A stretch of DNA of 64,000 nucleotides from Raillietiella orientalis. Its lineage: Eukaryota. The stretch lies in NCBI GenBank assembly GCA_036172245.1, contig JAYWIR010000033.1:620001-684000 (forward strand). Reading direction: 5' to 3'. A program made the translations under genes and the position numbers. The notes under the pieces were generated by a model. It was not told where the DNA came from and did no database searches. It saw only the letters and a program-made list of their open reading frames with translations. The first letter of the stretch is position 1; each line of letters opens with the position of its first letter. Positions 3,880 through 9,005 of this stretch are shown piece after piece.

Positions 3880-5831
3880 AATCTGCCTTTATTTCTCGCA
3901 CGGTGCAGACCGGGAGTACATGGCACCAAGGGGGTAGGTGACAAATTTTTTTTGATCCTGTGTAGTTAATCGTTCTTAAGTCCGATGGTTCGGTTGTGGA
4001 GGAAAACAGCTGCCTCTACAGCTGGATCAGGTCTTGAAAGGCGGCGCGGCACCACGGGACGGTCGGTGTTACGCTGATCTTGTCCGTCTTGGATGAGACA
4101 TGGTCGGCGTAGATATTCTTAGCTGCACGGATCACAGAGCACACGAGCTTTGGGCGAATCGCCTTTATTTCGTGGCTCCTCAGACCCATGCAGCTCAGGA
4201 CCGAGTCGTTCTTGGGGTGCCAGCTGCCTAACGATCCAATCACAAAGGCTTCAATTTTGACGTTGTAGCCTTGTTTCTCGTATCTCCTGCGGATGTCAGC
4301 ATATTTTGCGATCTTGAGTTTTCTCGCTGTATCCATCGTTTCCTTCCGGTTTTCGAAGGGGATGCATACATCCACGATGATCATGTGTTGTCCATGGGAT
4401 GCGACGATATCAGGACGCAGGCTGCTATCAATGGATGAGTCTGTTCTATCGACCGAGAAGTGGCCCCATTTCGGTCGAGGAGAACGCTCTAGCATGGCTA
4501 AGACGACAATATGCCTGGCTGTGATTGTTCCCAGATGCTTTGTGCAATGGCATAGCGCATGGGACAGTGTCTCCTTCGGGAACGGGCAGTGTCTGCAGGC
4601 CTCGTGGAAGCCCGGTCGCTTCCGGTTACCGTCAAGAAACATCTGGTTAAGACGGGCTCTATGGATAAACTTCCAATCGCTGTGGCGAATCAGCTCGGGC
4701 CTATCCAGAAAGGCCATGGAGGCTGGGTGGAGGGCTACGCAATCCATAATGCGGCCCTTGTCCGGCTTGCTTCCCAGCACGTTGCTCCTTTGGAGCCTTT
4801 TTAGGCCCCGGATGGATCGGGCTATTATTTTCCGGTCGTTCTCCCGGAGTGTCCTCTTGGATAGTTGAATGGAGACTTTGTTTGCTCGGATGGACCACTG
4901 CAGGTCAAGCCTCTTCGAGGCTTCGCGAGCTCTCGACCAGAAGTCGGCGGGGTCTCCCGACTGATGATGAAAAGGTGGGTCGGTGTCTCCGCTGATGTAA
5001 CCGGATATCAAGGTAGCACCTTCCTCCGGACAGTTTAATTCAGAGAGACCCAGGCCATCTCTCTTATGGTCAGGTCGGGGCATGTCAGCATTTTGAACGC
5101 TGAATCGATGGCCATAATGTCGGCCTCCTCGGCGAGGATCATCAGCCCTAGACCACCATATCTCTTAGACCCGTAGAGATACTCTTTGGAAGAGGCTCGG
5201 GTCAGCAAGAGAATATCTTCCTTTAAGGCTTTCTTGATTATTTCATCCAGGCTGCTCCAGAAGCCTCTGGGCTTAGAGCCCATCCGCATGTGGTGGACGA
5301 AGGATGGAAAAATAAATGTTTTCAAGGCGTCCAGCGTTTGCCACGGAGCTAGTGGTGCCTCCAGAATTTTGGTTACGCTGGATCGGATGTCGGCTTCAAG
5401 CGCATCGCTGTGGATGGCATCGAACCCGACCGGCTTCCCCAGGTAGCCGTAAGTGCCAACATCTGTGAGGGCGGGCAAGAGCTCACCCGCCACTCGGAAT
5501 CGCTGGCGTCCAACGGTTCTTGGGGTACCCGGGTCGTATTGGAACGATGCACACTTCCTGGCGTTAATCGACATTTAAAGTCGAGAGGCCGTGCTTTTGA
5601 AGTTCCGCCGCATCTTTTGTCAGGACGACTAGGTCATCCGTATAAGCCAATAAATTGTCCTTGGGCACCTGGCTCTTCATGTACACACAGAGGCTCCAGT
5701 GTGATATTAAACAAGCCCGATAGAGGGCAACCTTGCTTGACCCCCCTTTCGAGGGGAATGGGCGCTGATAGCCCCTCTTTGGTAACGATCCGGGTGGTGT
5801 TCCCGGAATACATTTGGCAGACAAGCTCTTC
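3880..5831 (-). mobile_element. RLE non-LTR retrotransposon, 3' half (RT C-part to RLE and 3' UTR)
   Basis: GVKQGCPLSGLLFN, YTDD, YLGKPVG, LAPWQTLDALKTF, CRHCPFPKETLSHALCHC, RPDIV, GSLGSWHPKND across ORFs 5634..5882, 5035..5574, 4016..5083; AATAAA on the minus strand at ~3888-3893. Confidence 0.9.
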
Positions 5832-6997
5832 ATCAAGCTTAGTCCTGATCTCTGCAACTATGTCAGTACCAGGGGCGGGCAATATTAACTCAATAGGCTT
5901 TATGGCCAGCTCTTTAGGAACTTAGAACAAAAACCTTCCCACTCTGGGGAATAGTCCTCTTTTGATTCTGTGGCCTGTTGTGTTAAATGCGGAGATGAAC
6001 ACAGGGTTGACTTAGGGTATACATTAAGCATGAATGATCCCAAGCGGCCAAGGGTTGCATCCGCATCTGCATCATTGAACACTACACGTGGTTGCCCTGT
6101 CAGGTAACGTGCCCCAATATGGTAATTCCTGGCATTTAACATATCTGCATAGGCAGCCCCTAGGAACACCATGTTCTCAATGCTCGGACAGTTGCCTGCG
6201 TGTGCCCAGTTGACAAGTCTGCGCATGGCTTGATATGCTATAGCATGTCGGTGAGTCCCAGCAGGAGGTGATGCGAAACGTAGCAACGCATCCTGATATA
6301 TCGTTACTTCTTTAAATGGGTCACCAGATATGTCTATGGGTGCTGTTTCTAATAATCCTATCATCCCAGCTTTCCGCAAAATTTCCAGAGTGCTCCCAAA
6401 ATGACCAAGCTTATGGACTATTTCCATAGCCCTATCCTCGGGCACCGTTGATCGACTAAACAATGCTCTCCAGACCTTTAGAGGAAATCCTGCTCCCTTC
6501 GAGTTATCTTTTCTCATGCCGGTATGATGGTTCGTTAACCACCACGAAACTTTCGTAGAGATTATGAAGACCATCATATTGTTAACTGAAAGCTGGTTAA
6601 TCATTCCTAGGCTCTGTGATCTTTGACCCGGCGCCATGTCTATCCTTTGAGTGATCGGTTTCCAATCACCGTCTGGGGTAAGATTAACACCATGTTTCTT
6701 GTATCTAATAAGTCCGTATGCTATTAGCCCATAAATTCCATTAAGCATAAGGGCTAAAGCTGAGTCCTTGTACAATTTGGTGGAATACATCCAACCAAAT
6801 GCTACTGCTACAATGTTCTTTATTGTGGGATGATAGTTTGTGGGCTGATAGATCTGCAGCTTTCTATCCTCAGCAAGAGCCACATCTGTACCTGTAGTCA
6901 GACCCACTTCTATCTCACCGTCTAAGTCCGGGAGGCCACTGCAGTATTCATCGAACACATTCGGATTATCCTCGGAACTTTGGGAAGCGATCGTCAA
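5832..6997 (-). pseudogene. Endogenous negative-strand RNA virus nucleoprotein, Qinviridae-like
   Basis: 365-aa ORF 5900..6997 with TKVSWWLTNHHTG, LGHFGST, RFASPPAGTHR, YHIGARYLTG, STLCSSPH, which I recall as qinvirus-type N motifs (not searched); no ATG at the ORF start; continues by frameshift (ELAIKPIELILPAPG...) to ~5832. Confidence 0.72.
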
Positions 6998-7294
6998 CTA
7001 ATACATTAGTTATCTGTAATTAGAGATACATTTGCTGTAAGTGAATTCTTTAAACCCATAATCCCAACGCATACCCCTCAGCAATTTCCCATACCCTGGA
7101 GTGCAATCGGAAGGTAGATTCCCATGCGCATCATGCTCTTGGCTCACAAATCACCCAAGCGGGTAGACAGTTGCATGCAGATAGCACACACAGAAACACC
7201 TTGCGCACCGTAGTTACAGTTATTACTTAGAAGCTCTTCCTTCTATATACGACGAAGGGCCTTCGGTAAGGAAAAAAAAAAACAAGGGGGCACC

Positions 7295-7560
7295 CGGACG
7301 TTGAAGTATCCCGTTATCAGGTGCGCCCGCCGCACACCATCTTTGGCCAACCAATCTTACCGCAGGGCTCCGAAGAACGCAGTGCGTTCTCCGCGCCTGT
7401 GGCTGCTGCAGGGCGCGTATACGTTCGTGACCACGAGGTCGATCGAGTCGGACCACTTGAGAACAAGTTGCCCAACTCGACCTTCCTCGTCGAACAGTAC
7501 ACTGCGCACTGCCTTTGCGACAGCTGGCTTCAGCAGGAAGCCCACTTCGCGGGAGTGGTC
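7295..7560 (-). mobile_element. Short APE-endonuclease fragment of the Tx1-like family
   Basis: FLLKPAVAKAVRSVLFDEEGRVGQLVLKWSDSIDLVVTNVYAP...HLITGYFN matches ORF2 N-termini at 41213 and 45685. Confidence 0.9.
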
Positions 7561-7564
7561 TCCA

Positions 7565-9005
7565 CCGGATTATGCTCCAGAACGCCGTCATATGGAAGGG
7601 AGCCCTTCTGGTGTGGACCAAGAATCCTATTTGCCGAAATCCAGTCGCGAAGTCTTCTGGCTAGGCATTTTGCAAATATCTTGCCCATAGTCCGGCTAAT
7701 GGCTATCGGCCGAAAGTGCGCGAGGTCTTCCCTCCGTAGCGCAAAGCTCTTGGGTATCAGGGTCGTCCTCGACTCTTTCCATTCGTGGGAGATTCGGCGG
7801 GGTAACAGGCAGATGTTGAATATCGCCCTTAGGGACCGACACTCTGGGTCGAGTTTCTGAAAGGCGGAGTACGGGATGCCATCTGACACGGGCTCCGTGT
7901 CTTCACATTGGCGGAGACAATTGGCAATTTCCCGGGCGTCGAGGGGAGACATGTCCACTTGGGCTTCCGTTGATTCCTCCACGGGGTCCCACGCCACAGG
8001 GCGAAAGTCGGGACGGGCCTTAAACAATTCCTTGAAGTATAGCTCGATACGCTCAGGGGATGCCTGGCATTGCACTTGGTCGCTATCCAAAACGTGCCTG
8101 ATCGCCCTTCGACGAATCCTGCCGTACATCCTCTGCAGCGATCTAGCGTACATACTTGGTTGCCGGTGTTCTTGGGTTGGGGGGGTGAAGGGGCGTAGTT
8201 TGAGAACGTATCTAATCGCCTCATAGGCAGCGTTCAGTTCCTTCATCGCTAACCCCCAAGACTCCATGGAGATTTTTCGTGATTCCAGGTCTTCGAGGAT
8301 TCACGTTGCTTCTTCAAGCGAGCTGGTAGGATTTCCCATCGTTTCCTTCTCACCTCCTCGATACGACGCTCCCGAGCAGCCGTCAGCTGACGCGTTCGGG
8401 AGCCCATATCCACGCGACATTTCTCGCTCTCTATTATGGATTGCGTCATAGCGGGAGTCGAGTGCGGGAAGAGGGCTCCTTCCCGGCGGGTCGCCCTCAT
8501 CTTCTGTCTTAGATCGAAGTGGCCATCGCTGTGATGGCGACGTAATGGAGCCGTACGCCGCACGCTCGCGTGGGCAGGAATTCTCGTCGGCGCTACTTCC
8601 TTCCCAGAGACCTTGTTGGCGCCCCTTCTAACTTCACCCCTGGTTCTTTGGTATGGTGCCCTCAAGCATACGCTAGCTAGCGCGCGCGAGGGCCCACTTC
8701 CGCGGGAATTCTCTCCTTCACCATTACAACGGGCATCAAAGTGCGAGTTGAAGAAGGGAGGGCTCCCTTCCGGCGAACTGTCTTCGCGTGTCATCTTGTC
8801 TTAGGTCGAAGGGGCCATCGCTACGGTGGCGACGTAGTGGGGCCGTGCGCCACGCGCTCGCGGGAGCAGGGAATGTAGCCGGCAGTTTATTCTTTCCACG
8901 CGGTTTGTTGGCGTTCCTTCTGACTTCATCCTCAGCTTCTCGGTGTGGTGCCCTCCCGCATACGCTGGTTAACGCGCGTGAGGACACATCTTCGCGTCCG
9001 GAAGG
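7565..9005 (-). mobile_element. RLE retrotransposon fragment, linker plus RT N-terminus
   Basis: ORF 7530..8267: LQRMY..RRRAIR, DGIPY, WKESRTTLIPK, FRPIAIS, HQKG..PYDGVLEHN. Confidence 0.88.
8470..9003. repeat. Diverged tandem duplication, period ~292 bp, in the RLE linker
   Basis: CTTAGATCGAAG at 8508 vs CTTAGGTCGAAG at 8800; both units translate to SRAL.SVC.RAP....EVRR.ANK....RTAPLRRH.SDG.FDLRQ. Confidence 0.85.

What the first reader, a model, noticed from the sequence alone, without database searches (positions are those of the whole stretch)
5820..7570. Qinvirus-like nucleoprotein and a Tx1 fragment embedded co-directionally inside an RLE reverse transcriptase
Seen: the RT breaks at GVLEHN (~7570) and resumes at ELVCQMY (~5830), roughly 50 codons later. 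The gap holds an APE fragment (7295-7560), a T-rich linker and a 365-aa viral-type ORF whose frameshifted tail runs in frame into the RT (..RTKLDE-ELVCQMY). All parts are on the same strand and I found no TSD. Known: non-retroviral RNA-virus EVEs require a host RT, and R2-type RTs jump templates. Inference: capture of viral RNA by RLE-RT template switching; most described EVE chimeras involve LTR elements. The family call is from recalled motifs.
Basis: partly seen in the sequence, partly recalled or inferred. Interest (0 to 1): 0.76.

Follow-up and report, generated by a model that had tools for sequence, protein, structure and literature searches.

The report
Qinvirus-like fossil inside R2-type retrotransposon
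A dead R2-type jumping gene carries, in place of part of its own reverse transcriptase, a nearly complete copy of an RNA-virus nucleoprotein gene plus a scrap of another jumping gene, all pointing the same way, which looks like a record of a reverse transcriptase hopping between RNA templates.

Summary
On the minus strand, a decayed R2-superfamily (RLE) retroelement (about 9112 to 4016) lacks 49-50 codons of its reverse transcriptase, including motif A. In their place are about 1.74 kb (7569 to about 5829):
- a sense fragment of the APE domain of an L1/Tx1-like LINE (7563-7286);
- a T-rich filler (7285-7272);
- 265 nt of low-GC sequence, probably the viral 5' UTR;
- a 365-codon ORF (6997-5900).

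The ORF is homologous to qinvirus segment-2 proteins (E 3.8e-39 to Hubei qinvirus-like virus 1). Its predicted fold matches qinvirus nucleoprotein models (Foldseek E 1.6e-23).

The viral gene is broken by an early in-frame stop and a late frameshift, and it lacks its last few codons and its 3' UTR. I found no target-site duplication.

Both RT halves map collinearly on 6 of 6 full-length R2-type references and match the same sister copies in the window.

The template-switch origin (R2 RNA, then viral mRNA, then LINE RNA, then R2 RNA) fits the co-orientation, the filler and the missing poly(A) and TSD. It is not proven: capture of cDNA at a DNA break remains a serious rival, and no reads cover the junctions. 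Tx1-clade membership was not testable. It is a new variant of known kinds (EVE; LINE template-switch chimera).

The parts
7570..8300 (-). N-terminal half of the R2-type reverse transcriptase (fingers, motifs before motif A). It ends ...DGVLEHN at 7570.
   Evidence: PDB R2 proteins 9nl3_A, 9dou_A and 9nl2_A, E 1e-8 to 5e-8. tblastn of 6 of 6 full-length R2-type references ends at 7563-7569, or 7539 for one. DNA alignment to copies A, B and C.
7286..7563 (-). Sense fragment of the APE (endonuclease) domain of an L1/Tx1-like LINE, about residues 96-184 of its ORF2. It carries an in-frame stop.
   Evidence: blastn gives 75-80 % identity to three copies at 41.4, 45.9 and 50.2 kb. Alignment. The donor-family ORF 41132-44770 has Exo_endo_phos, RVT_1 and zf-RVT.
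7272..7285 (-). T-rich filler (TTG plus T11) between the LINE fragment and the virus-derived part.
   Evidence: Sequence. Not part of the LINE homology. Origin is inferred: non-templated A addition on the cDNA, or viral UTR.
7007..7271 (-). Putative viral 5' UTR (265 nt). It has low GC and low CpG like the ORF, and no match elsewhere in the window.
   Evidence: Composition shift at about 7290. No blastn hit in the window. Related virus-like contigs have 49-231 nt before the ORF. No nucleotide similarity to those UTRs, so the assignment is inferred.
5900..7006 (-). Qinvirus-like segment-2 (nucleoprotein) gene. In-frame ATG at 7006-7004 and in-frame TAG at 7000-6998, then 365 open codons (6997-5903) and a stop at 5902-5900.
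   Evidence: 34 homologues at E <= 1e-3, including Hubei qinvirus-like virus 1 at E 3.8e-39, 32 % identity and 94 % coverage. AF2 model pLDDT 90.3. BFVD top 7 are qinvirus-type proteins, E 1.6e-23 to 8.3e-14. The top 12 of 48,161 PDB representatives are negative-strand virus nucleoproteins, Z 4.0-6.5.
5835..5915 (-). Frameshifted C-terminal tail of the viral gene (..LPAPGTDIVAEIRTKL), now in the RT frame. The gene's last few codons and 3' UTR are absent.
   Evidence: Alignment with homologue C-termini and with the L001 ORF end. Codon positions read.
4016..5834 (-). C-terminal part of the same R2-type protein: RT palm from ELVCQMY, YTDD motif, thumb, CCHC knuckle and restriction-like endonuclease. 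There are three frameshifts, near 5690, 5575 and 5100.
   Evidence: ORFs. PDB 9nl3_A residues 585-641. 16 full-length homologues, several named R2 Pol. Collinear tblastn.
8301..9112 (-). Decayed 5' region of the element. It has a 200-nt direct repeat (8505-8704 and 8797-8996, 74 %), no recognisable N-terminal zinc-finger/Myb match, and abuts an antisense 28S fragment at 9113.

Best explanation
This is an endogenous viral element. A nearly complete plus-sense DNA copy of a qinvirus-like segment 2 (5' UTR and nucleoprotein gene, without its last few codons and 3' UTR) sits inside a decayed R2-superfamily retrotransposon.

The most likely origin is a single cDNA made on four RNA templates in series:
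1. Reverse transcription started at the 3' end of an R2-type RNA.
2. It left that RNA inside the RT gene, at ELVCQMY.
3. It continued on a viral mRNA-sense RNA from just before its stop codon to about its 5' end.
4. It added an A-rich non-templated tail, seen as a T-run on the sense strand.
5. It copied 278 nt of a LINE RNA.
6. It returned to R2 RNA 49-50 codons upstream of where it had left.

The result is an RT-dead chimeric element that has since decayed neutrally.

Shown: the identity, order and orientation of the parts, the breakpoints, the absence of a TSD, and the breaks in the genes.

Inferred: that the joining happened at the RNA/cDNA level, and that the R2-type enzyme did it.
For: - All four pieces are in sense orientation on one strand, as serial copying of sense RNAs requires.
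- The insert replaces RT sequence instead of adding to it, and the two RT ends are collinear: a gap of 41-55 aa on 6 of 6 references and 147-150 nt in 5 sister copies.
- There is no TSD and no poly(A) at the 3' side of the viral piece. The viral piece joins R2 coding sequence directly, so it was not a separate LINE-type insertion primed on a viral poly(A) tail.
- The virus-derived part runs from within the last codons of the ORF to a point 265 nt upstream of the ATG. Relatives have 49-231 nt there, so this is roughly a run-off to the RNA 5' end.
- The T-rich filler lies exactly at that end. R2 RT is reported to add mainly non-templated adenosines to cDNA ends and to jump templates without homology in vitro (passages read in PMC8857657 and PMC12203849).
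- GC and CpG drop across 5830-7290 relative to both flanks, as expected if that stretch has one foreign source.
- The in-frame stop, the frameshift and the truncation show a genomic fossil, not contamination by a live virus.
- Tripartite chimeras from double template jumps are documented for other LINEs (abstract of PMC2104539).
Against: - The departures and landings are all internal to the RNAs, whereas the jumping described for R2 RT in vitro is end-to-end (PMC12203849 passages). This model therefore needs broken RNA templates.
- PMC8857657 states that A overhangs of 3 nt or more are non-productive for jumping in vitro. It also states that L1 chimeras in cell assays arise from RNA ligation before reverse transcription, not from jumping.
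- The T-run may simply be viral UTR; relative L001 has a T7 run in its 5' UTR.
- Only one locus is available, with no empty or filled paralogue and no read across any junction.
- The two co-orientations have a chance probability of about 1/4 to 1/2 under a DNA-level model, so they are weak evidence.
- The element's own insertion context is not a canonical R2 site.
Confidence: 0.55

Rival explanations
1. DNA-level capture. A double-strand break inside an already integrated R2-type copy lost about 147 bp and was repaired by end joining that trapped a free cDNA. That cDNA was a LINE-virus chimera made by any cellular RT, for example the L1/Tx1-like LINE or an LTR element. The R2 enzyme played no part.
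For: - A target deletion, no TSD, filler nucleotides and little or no microhomology are the usual marks of end-joining capture.
- The window is a dense graveyard of at least 7 decayed R2-like copies and LINEs, where breaks and rearrangements are plausible.
- The insert contains a fragment of an APE-type LINE whose family has an intact 1212-aa ORF2 in the same window, so another active RT was at hand.
- The internal breakpoints in all RNAs are awkward for end-to-end jumping.
Against: - The insert's sense orientation relative to the R2 copy has to be put down to chance (about 1/2).
- The viral 3' end joins R2 sequence without any poly(A) or primer remnant.
Confidence: 0.3
2. RNA ligation before reverse transcription. 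Fragments of R2, LINE and viral RNA were ligated in the cell, and the composite RNA was then copied and integrated by the R2 machinery without any template jump.
For: - It gives the same co-oriented, TSD-less internal mosaic.
- PMC8857657 (passage read) cites that L1 chimeras in cell assays arise from pre-ligation and not from discontinuous copying.
- Internal breakpoints are natural for ligated fragments.
Against: The T-rich filler is then unexplained unless it is viral. No evidence from this locus separates this model from template jumping.
Confidence: 0.08
3. Assembly artefact, or two or more independent insertions that happen to abut. One such case: a retrocopy of the viral genome-sense RNA, with the A11 run on the plus strand as its tail, placed next to an older LINE fragment.
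For: - No read crosses any junction in the one run available.
- On the plus strand an A11 run follows the antisense viral sequence.
Against: - The viral sequence carries a stop and a frameshift, and 291 nt of it are present letter for letter in a DNA-type run, so it is genomic.
- Independent events would have to land exactly at the edges of a 147-nt RT deletion.
- Genome-sense RNA of negative-strand viruses is not normally polyadenylated (general knowledge).
Confidence: 0.07

Closest known systems
Non-retroviral endogenous viral elements (EVEs/NIRVS) of negative-strand RNA viruses in arthropods, including qinvirus-derived EVEs
   Same: - It is a DNA copy of a viral mRNA-sense sequence in a TE-rich region, broken by a stop and a frameshift.
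- Qinvirus-clade EVEs are already reported in arthropods (passages in PMC6955108) and as RdRp fragments in ants (PMC6540820).
- Uncharacterised proteins from ant and sea-spider genomes are among the homologues.
   Different: - It lies inside the coding sequence of an R2-type (RLE) element, replacing part of the RT.
- Published associations that I read are with LTR elements in Aedes, or are statistical enrichment of non-LTR fragments (R1, I, L1) near tick NIRVS (PMC6580184).
- My four literature searches found no EVE described inside an R2-type element.
LINE template-switch chimeric retrocopies (bipartite and tripartite chimeras)
   Same: Several unrelated transcripts are fused head to tail in the same orientation, explained by one or two template switches during LINE reverse transcription (abstract of PMC2104539).
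   Different: - Those chimeras end in the LINE or mRNA 3' end with poly(A) and are flanked by TSDs.
- Here the foreign pieces are internal, the cDNA returns to the original element, three switches are needed, one template is a viral RNA, and the element is RLE-type.
R2 reverse transcriptase template jumping and non-templated addition (Bombyx R2, in vitro)
   Same: Continuous cDNA synthesis on separate RNAs without homology, and predominantly A addition at cDNA ends (passages in PMC12203849 and PMC8857657). The mosaic and the T-run filler fit this.
   Different: The in vitro jumps are end-to-end. Here all breakpoints are internal to the source RNAs. The element here is only 30-37 % identical to named R2 proteins.
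Qinvirus segment 2 (putative nucleoprotein or structural protein)
   Same: - 32 % identity over 94 % of the ORF to Hubei qinvirus-like virus 1.
- Fold match to models called nucleoprotein or nucleocapsid of Sanxia, Shahe and thrips qin-like viruses.
- Related contigs are 1.6-1.8 kb with one ORF and 82-231 nt 5' UTRs.
   Different: - It sits on the longest branch of the tree and has no close relative: at most 38 % identity, placement unresolved within a 27-row clade.
- It is DNA, truncated at the 3' end, and broken.

Membership tests
Qinvirus-type segment-2 nucleoprotein family | Significant full-length sequence similarity to proteins of named qinviruses | tested here: met
   P0019 (Hubei qinvirus-like virus 1) at E 3.8e-39, 32 % identity, 94 % coverage. 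34 hits at E <= 1e-3, and 34 of 34 map to the single locus 5909-6985. All 17 family-invariant columns are kept.
Qinvirus-type segment-2 nucleoprotein family | Nucleoprotein fold of negative-strand RNA viruses | tested here: met
   AF2 pLDDT 90.3. BFVD: 8 matches at E <= 0.001. Of the top 7, 4 are from viruses named qin(-like) and 3 are called nucleoprotein or nucleocapsid, TM 0.69-0.81. In the VIA wide search the top 12 of 48,161 chains are all nucleoproteins of Mononegavirales, Z 4.0-6.5; this Z range alone is below the tool's caution line. Foldseek on PDB found nothing at E <= 0.001.
Qinvirus-type segment-2 nucleoprotein family | Partner L (RdRp) segment of the same virus | not tested
   No qinvirus L reference was used. 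No whole genome is held for this window.
R2 superfamily (RLE-type non-LTR retrotransposons) | Single ORF with an RT followed by a CCHC knuckle and a C-terminal restriction-like endonuclease | tested here: met
   PDB R2 proteins are the best matches of both RT pieces. There are 16 full-length homologues, 3 named R2 Pol polyprotein. Alignment is collinear to the C-terminus of 6 of 6 references. The CCHC pattern is visible in ORF 4016-5164. Individual catalytic residues of the endonuclease were not checked.
R2 superfamily (RLE-type non-LTR retrotransposons) | Sense insertion at the specific R2 site of 28S rDNA | tested here: not met
   The only adjoining 28S fragment (9113-9670, plus strand) is antisense to the element. 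A 20-nt motif of the canonical site, typed from recall, has no match with up to 3 mismatches. This copy is therefore R2-like by protein, not shown to be an R2 sensu stricto insertion.
R2 superfamily (RLE-type non-LTR retrotransposons) | N-terminal zinc-finger/Myb DNA-binding region | tested here: inconclusive
   Reference alignments start at residue 461 of P0035. 8301-9112 gives no match and holds a 200-nt direct repeat.
Tx1 clade of L1-like LINEs | APE endonuclease plus RT plus C-terminal zinc motif (L1-superfamily architecture) | tested here: met
   The donor-family ORF 41132-44770 has Exo_endo_phos E 1.9e-13, RVT_1 E 7e-23 and zf-RVT E 3.1e-05 (the last below its gathering score). Atlas neighbours have the same domain set.
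Tx1 clade of L1-like LINEs | Phylogenetic placement with Tx1-type elements, or target-specific insertion | not testable with these tools
No named Tx1 reference was reachable.
LINE template-switch chimeric retrocopies | All parts in the same transcriptional orientation, fused directly | tested here: met
LINE template-switch chimeric retrocopies | 3' poly(A) and flanking target-site duplication of the whole chimera | tested here: not met
   No TSD around the insert and no poly(A) at its 3' side. The ends of the whole R2-like element could not be defined.

The most novel reading that the evidence does not exclude
This locus is a natural, in vivo record of serial template jumping by an R2-type (RLE) reverse transcriptase that endogenised a negative-strand RNA virus gene. 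On this reading rDNA-associated R2-type elements, and not only LTR elements and L1, can manufacture EVEs. The resulting virus-bearing dead element sits in a retroelement graveyard of the kind that feeds small-RNA defence.
Probability: 0.4. Interest if true: 0.75.

Novelty: new variant of a known kind. Interest (0 to 1): 0.6.

Why it matters
How RNA viruses without a reverse transcriptase enter animal genomes is known mainly from L1-type insertions in mammals and from LTR-element chimeras in insects.

A virus gene welded into the middle of an R2-type RT, together with a scrap of a second LINE, would add a third class of enzyme to that list. It would also give genomic support to R2 template jumping, an activity that the passages I read (PMC8857657, PMC12203849) describe only from in vitro work.

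It also extends the qinvirus fossil record to a near full-length nucleoprotein gene of a lineage with no close known relative (at most 38 % identity).

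Tried and rejected
- Pfam on nine ORF pieces gave nothing, even at E 10. The pieces are too short or too diverged; R2 identity came from PDB sequences and the large protein collection instead.
- phmmer of the viral ORF against PDB sequences gave only chance hits.
- No whole genome is held for the window, so paralogues, empty sites and copy number could not be examined.
- Sequencing runs: one run only, X1, labelled 'DNA?' and holding 0.10 of the sampled words; no RNA holder is listed.
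  - Laid on 5000-8400, it gave 8 contigs.
  - Two are exact 151-nt pieces inside the viral ORF (6003-6294).
  - Six are less than 90 % alike, on the APE fragment.
  - None crosses a junction and none lies on the RT flanks, so the junctions are neither supported nor contradicted. The run may be the sample the window was assembled from.
- A search for longer, fused forms of the viral protein (640-2000 aa) found none. The tool itself calls this weak evidence.
- The six longer related loci (L010-L015) have no R2-type or LINE RT within the stretches fetched, up to 3 kb either side of the match, so no recurrent virus-RT association was found.
- The putative viral 5' UTR has no nucleotide similarity to the UTRs of 15 related loci and no tRNA. 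Its viral origin rests on composition and length only.
- Cap-snatched leader as the source of the pyrimidine-rich filler: considered and dropped, because nothing here tests it.
- Earlier notes of this scan: nothing for this genome, this sequence or these words.
- A tree of 35 N-type proteins leaves the window's ORF unresolved on the longest branch, so no donor lineage can be named.

Full report
**1. What is in the sequence**

Everything of interest lies on the minus strand. Stop-to-stop ORFs give, in order:
- a 256-aa frame at 8300-7530, ending ...GSLPYDGVLEHN;
- a 70-aa frame at 7569-7357;
- a 365-aa frame at 6997-5900;
- a run of overlapping frames from 5921 down to 4016.

Pfam recognised none of these short, diverged pieces, so they were identified by other means.

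**2. The flanks are two halves of one R2-type element**

- The 256-aa piece matches solved R2 retrotransposon proteins (9nl3_A residues 345-529, E 1.2e-08; 9dou_A; 9nl2_A).
- The piece that begins ELVCQMY matches the same chain from residue 585 (E 0.0056). About 55 residues of an R2 protein are therefore missing between them.
- The 382-aa C-terminal frame has 16 full-length homologues at E <= 1e-3. They are 28-37 % identical, and 3 are named as R2 Pol polyproteins of spiders.
- Six of these references were laid on 3401-9600 by tblastn. All six align collinearly to both sides, leaving 41-55 of their residues uncovered exactly at the break.
- The window holds at least six further R2-like copies. 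Five of them span the break and show 147-150 nt where this element has about 1.74 kb.
- DNA alignments place the end of RT homology at 7570 and its resumption at 5828. The lost stretch includes the motif-A region seen in the sister copies, so the chimera could never have encoded an active RT.
- Both halves are about equally related to the same sister copies A-D: N-half 47-67 %, downstream parts 39-69 % protein identity. That is consistent with one element, but it does not resolve subfamily.
- The downstream part has three frameshifts.

**3. The insert**

*(a) LINE fragment.* 7295-7560 matches three LINE copies in the window at 80.5, 78.3 and 74.5 %.
- With a 12-nt gap the homology runs from about 7563 to 7286.
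- The best-preserved copy is a 1212-aa ORF (41132-44770) with Exo_endo_phos, RVT_1 and zf-RVT. The fragment corresponds to residues about 96-184 of it, in sense.
- Whether the family belongs to the Tx1 clade could not be tested.

*(b) Filler.* TTG plus eleven T at 7285-7272.

*(c) Probable viral 5' UTR.* 7271-7007 is 265 nt with the same low GC and CpG as the ORF and unlike either flank.
- It has no other match in the window and no tRNA.
- It shows no nucleotide similarity to relatives' UTRs.
- Nine short virus-like contigs have 49-231 nt before their ORF, so this stretch is plausibly the viral 5' UTR, perhaps with some extra filler.

*(d) The viral gene.*
- An in-frame ATG (7006-7004) is followed two codons later by an in-frame TAG, then by 365 open codons.
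- A frameshift near 5900-5915 moves the C-terminal tail (..TDIVAEIRTKL, compare ..TDEELGEIRQVF in L001) into the RT frame.
- The last recognisably viral codon ends at 5835. Relatives have about 6-10 more codons and a 229-412-nt 3' UTR, which are absent here.

**4. The ORF is a qinvirus-type nucleoprotein gene**

- The large protein collection gives 34 hits at E <= 1e-3, out of 2689 candidates.
  - The best hits are unnamed proteins on contigs of 1.1-3.1 kb (38 % identity, E 8e-60).
  - One hit is the hypothetical protein of Hubei qinvirus-like virus 1 (E 3.8e-39, 32 %, 94 % coverage).
  - Four come from animal genome records (two ants, a sea spider, a rotifer).
- All 34 hit only this one locus in the window.
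- IMG/VR holds three related contigs of 1601-1803 nt, each with a single ORF.
- An AlphaFold2 model built on the 35-row alignment has mean pLDDT 90.3.
  - Against BFVD there are 8 matches at E <= 0.001. The first seven (E 1.6e-23 to 8.3e-14, TM 0.69-0.81) are qinvirus-type proteins, three of them called nucleoprotein or nucleocapsid.
  - Foldseek on PDB finds nothing at E <= 0.001; its weak top rows are paramyxo-, pneumo-, rhabdo- and filovirus N proteins.
  - In the independent VIA search the top 12 of 48,161 chains are all Mononegavirales nucleoproteins, at a modest Z of 4.0-6.5.
- In a maximum-likelihood tree the ORF sits on the longest terminal branch, unresolved inside a well-supported 27-row clade that also holds the Hubei virus protein.
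- Qinvirus segment 2 is described as encoding a putative structural protein, and qinvirus-clade EVEs are reported in arthropods (passages read in PMC6955108; ant RdRp EVE in PMC6540820).

**5. It is a genomic fossil, not a contaminant**

- The early stop, the frameshift, the missing 3' end and the direct fusion to host retroelement sequence all argue for integrated DNA.
- One public run, labelled as probable DNA, contains two 151-nt contigs identical to 6003-6294. It may be the source sample, and it covers no junction, so the junctions remain without read support.

**6. How it probably arose**

The features that constrain the mechanism are:
- All four pieces are in sense orientation.
- The foreign block replaces 147-150 nt of the RT and the RT ends are collinear.
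- No TSD: no shared k-mer of 7 or more between the outer junctions.
- No poly(A) on the 3' side of the viral piece.
- The viral piece reaches roughly to the expected 5' end of the RNA.
- A T-rich filler sits exactly there.

A cDNA that started at the R2 3' end, then copied viral plus-sense RNA, then LINE RNA, then R2 RNA again explains all of these in one event.

R2 RT jumps between unrelated templates in vitro (PMC12203849 passages). It adds mainly non-templated adenosines to cDNA ends (PMC8857657 passage), which would read as T on the sense strand. Double jumps giving tripartite chimeras are documented for other LINEs (PMC2104539 abstract).

Against this reading:
- Every breakpoint is internal to its RNA, whereas the in vitro jumps are end-to-end.
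- Long A overhangs are reported as non-productive for jumping.
- L1 chimeras in cells are reported to arise by RNA ligation and not by jumping (PMC8857657).
- The T-run could simply be viral.

The main rival is capture of a free LINE-virus cDNA at a break in an existing R2 copy. It predicts the same deletion, filler and lack of a TSD, and needs only a 1-in-2 coincidence of orientation.

My odds are:

| Explanation | Odds |
|---|---|
| Serial template switching during R2-primed reverse transcription | about 0.55 |
| DNA-level capture at a break | 0.30 |
| RNA ligation before reverse transcription | 0.08 |
| Artefact or stepwise insertions | 0.07 |

**7. Comparison with what is known, and novelty**

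- EVEs from negative-strand RNA viruses, including the qinvirus clade, are known.
- LINE template-switch chimeras are known.
- Non-LTR fragments (R1, I, L1) are statistically enriched near tick NIRVS (PMC6580184 passages).
- Four full-text searches turned up no description of a viral gene embedded inside an R2-type element, or of a four-segment mosaic that returns to the starting element. The library does not hold most subscription journals, so this absence is provisional.
- I file it as a new variant of known kinds.

**8. Verdict**

The family calls are correct for the virus and for the RLE element; the Tx1 label is untested. The template-switch mechanism is the best reading but is unproven. 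Interest 0.6.

Noticed in passing
window 9113-9670 (+) with flanks 9671-9777 and 9112 downwards: A 28S rRNA fragment (Rfam LSU model about 1907-2290) lies antisense to the R2-like copies on both sides. The 3' UTR of copy A (ending ...AAATAAA on the minus strand) abuts the 28S sequence right after ...GGCGGGAGTAACT. By my recall that is a few nucleotides upstream of the canonical R2 site. This is either a rearrangement or an RLE lineage that inserts antisense.
   Followed up: partly
window 2195-34906: At least seven R2-like copies on both strands: the chimera, A 9778-12478, B 21830-24568, C 26520-28497, D 31743-34906, E 2288-3560 and F 29622-31050. They are only 35-69 % identical in protein to the chimera, so this is a graveyard of several diverged RLE lineages.
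   Followed up: partly
window 38000-52500: A cluster of L1/Tx1-like LINE copies about 4.3-4.5 kb apart. It includes an uninterrupted 1212-aa ORF2 (41132-44770, +) with APE, RT and zf-RVT domains, preceded by a 632-aa ORF (39306-41204) without a Pfam match.
   Followed up: partly
window 17701-20000 (+): A second, longer 28S fragment (model 1890-3306). It has an internal deletion around the region where R2/R1 sites lie and a 239-nt insertion. The canonical R2 target motif is absent from the whole window.
   Followed up: partly
window 8505-8704 and 8797-8996: A 200-nt direct repeat (74 % identity, 292-nt spacing) in the decayed 5' region of the chimeric element.
   Followed up: no
L012:2968-4311 and L013:598-1131: Two contigs of other assemblies hold qinvirus-N-like sequences at 27 % identity. 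One contig is 64.5 kb long, and there the reading frame is open for 448 aa. These are probably independent EVEs in another eukaryote. No RT lies within the fetched flanks.
   Followed up: partly
P0033: A rotifer (Brachionus plicatilis) protein annotated as 'group II intron reverse transcriptase maturase' is a homologue of the qinvirus-type N protein over 70 % of the query (E 3e-25). The name looks like a mis-annotation, or a hint of an RT nearby.
   Followed up: no
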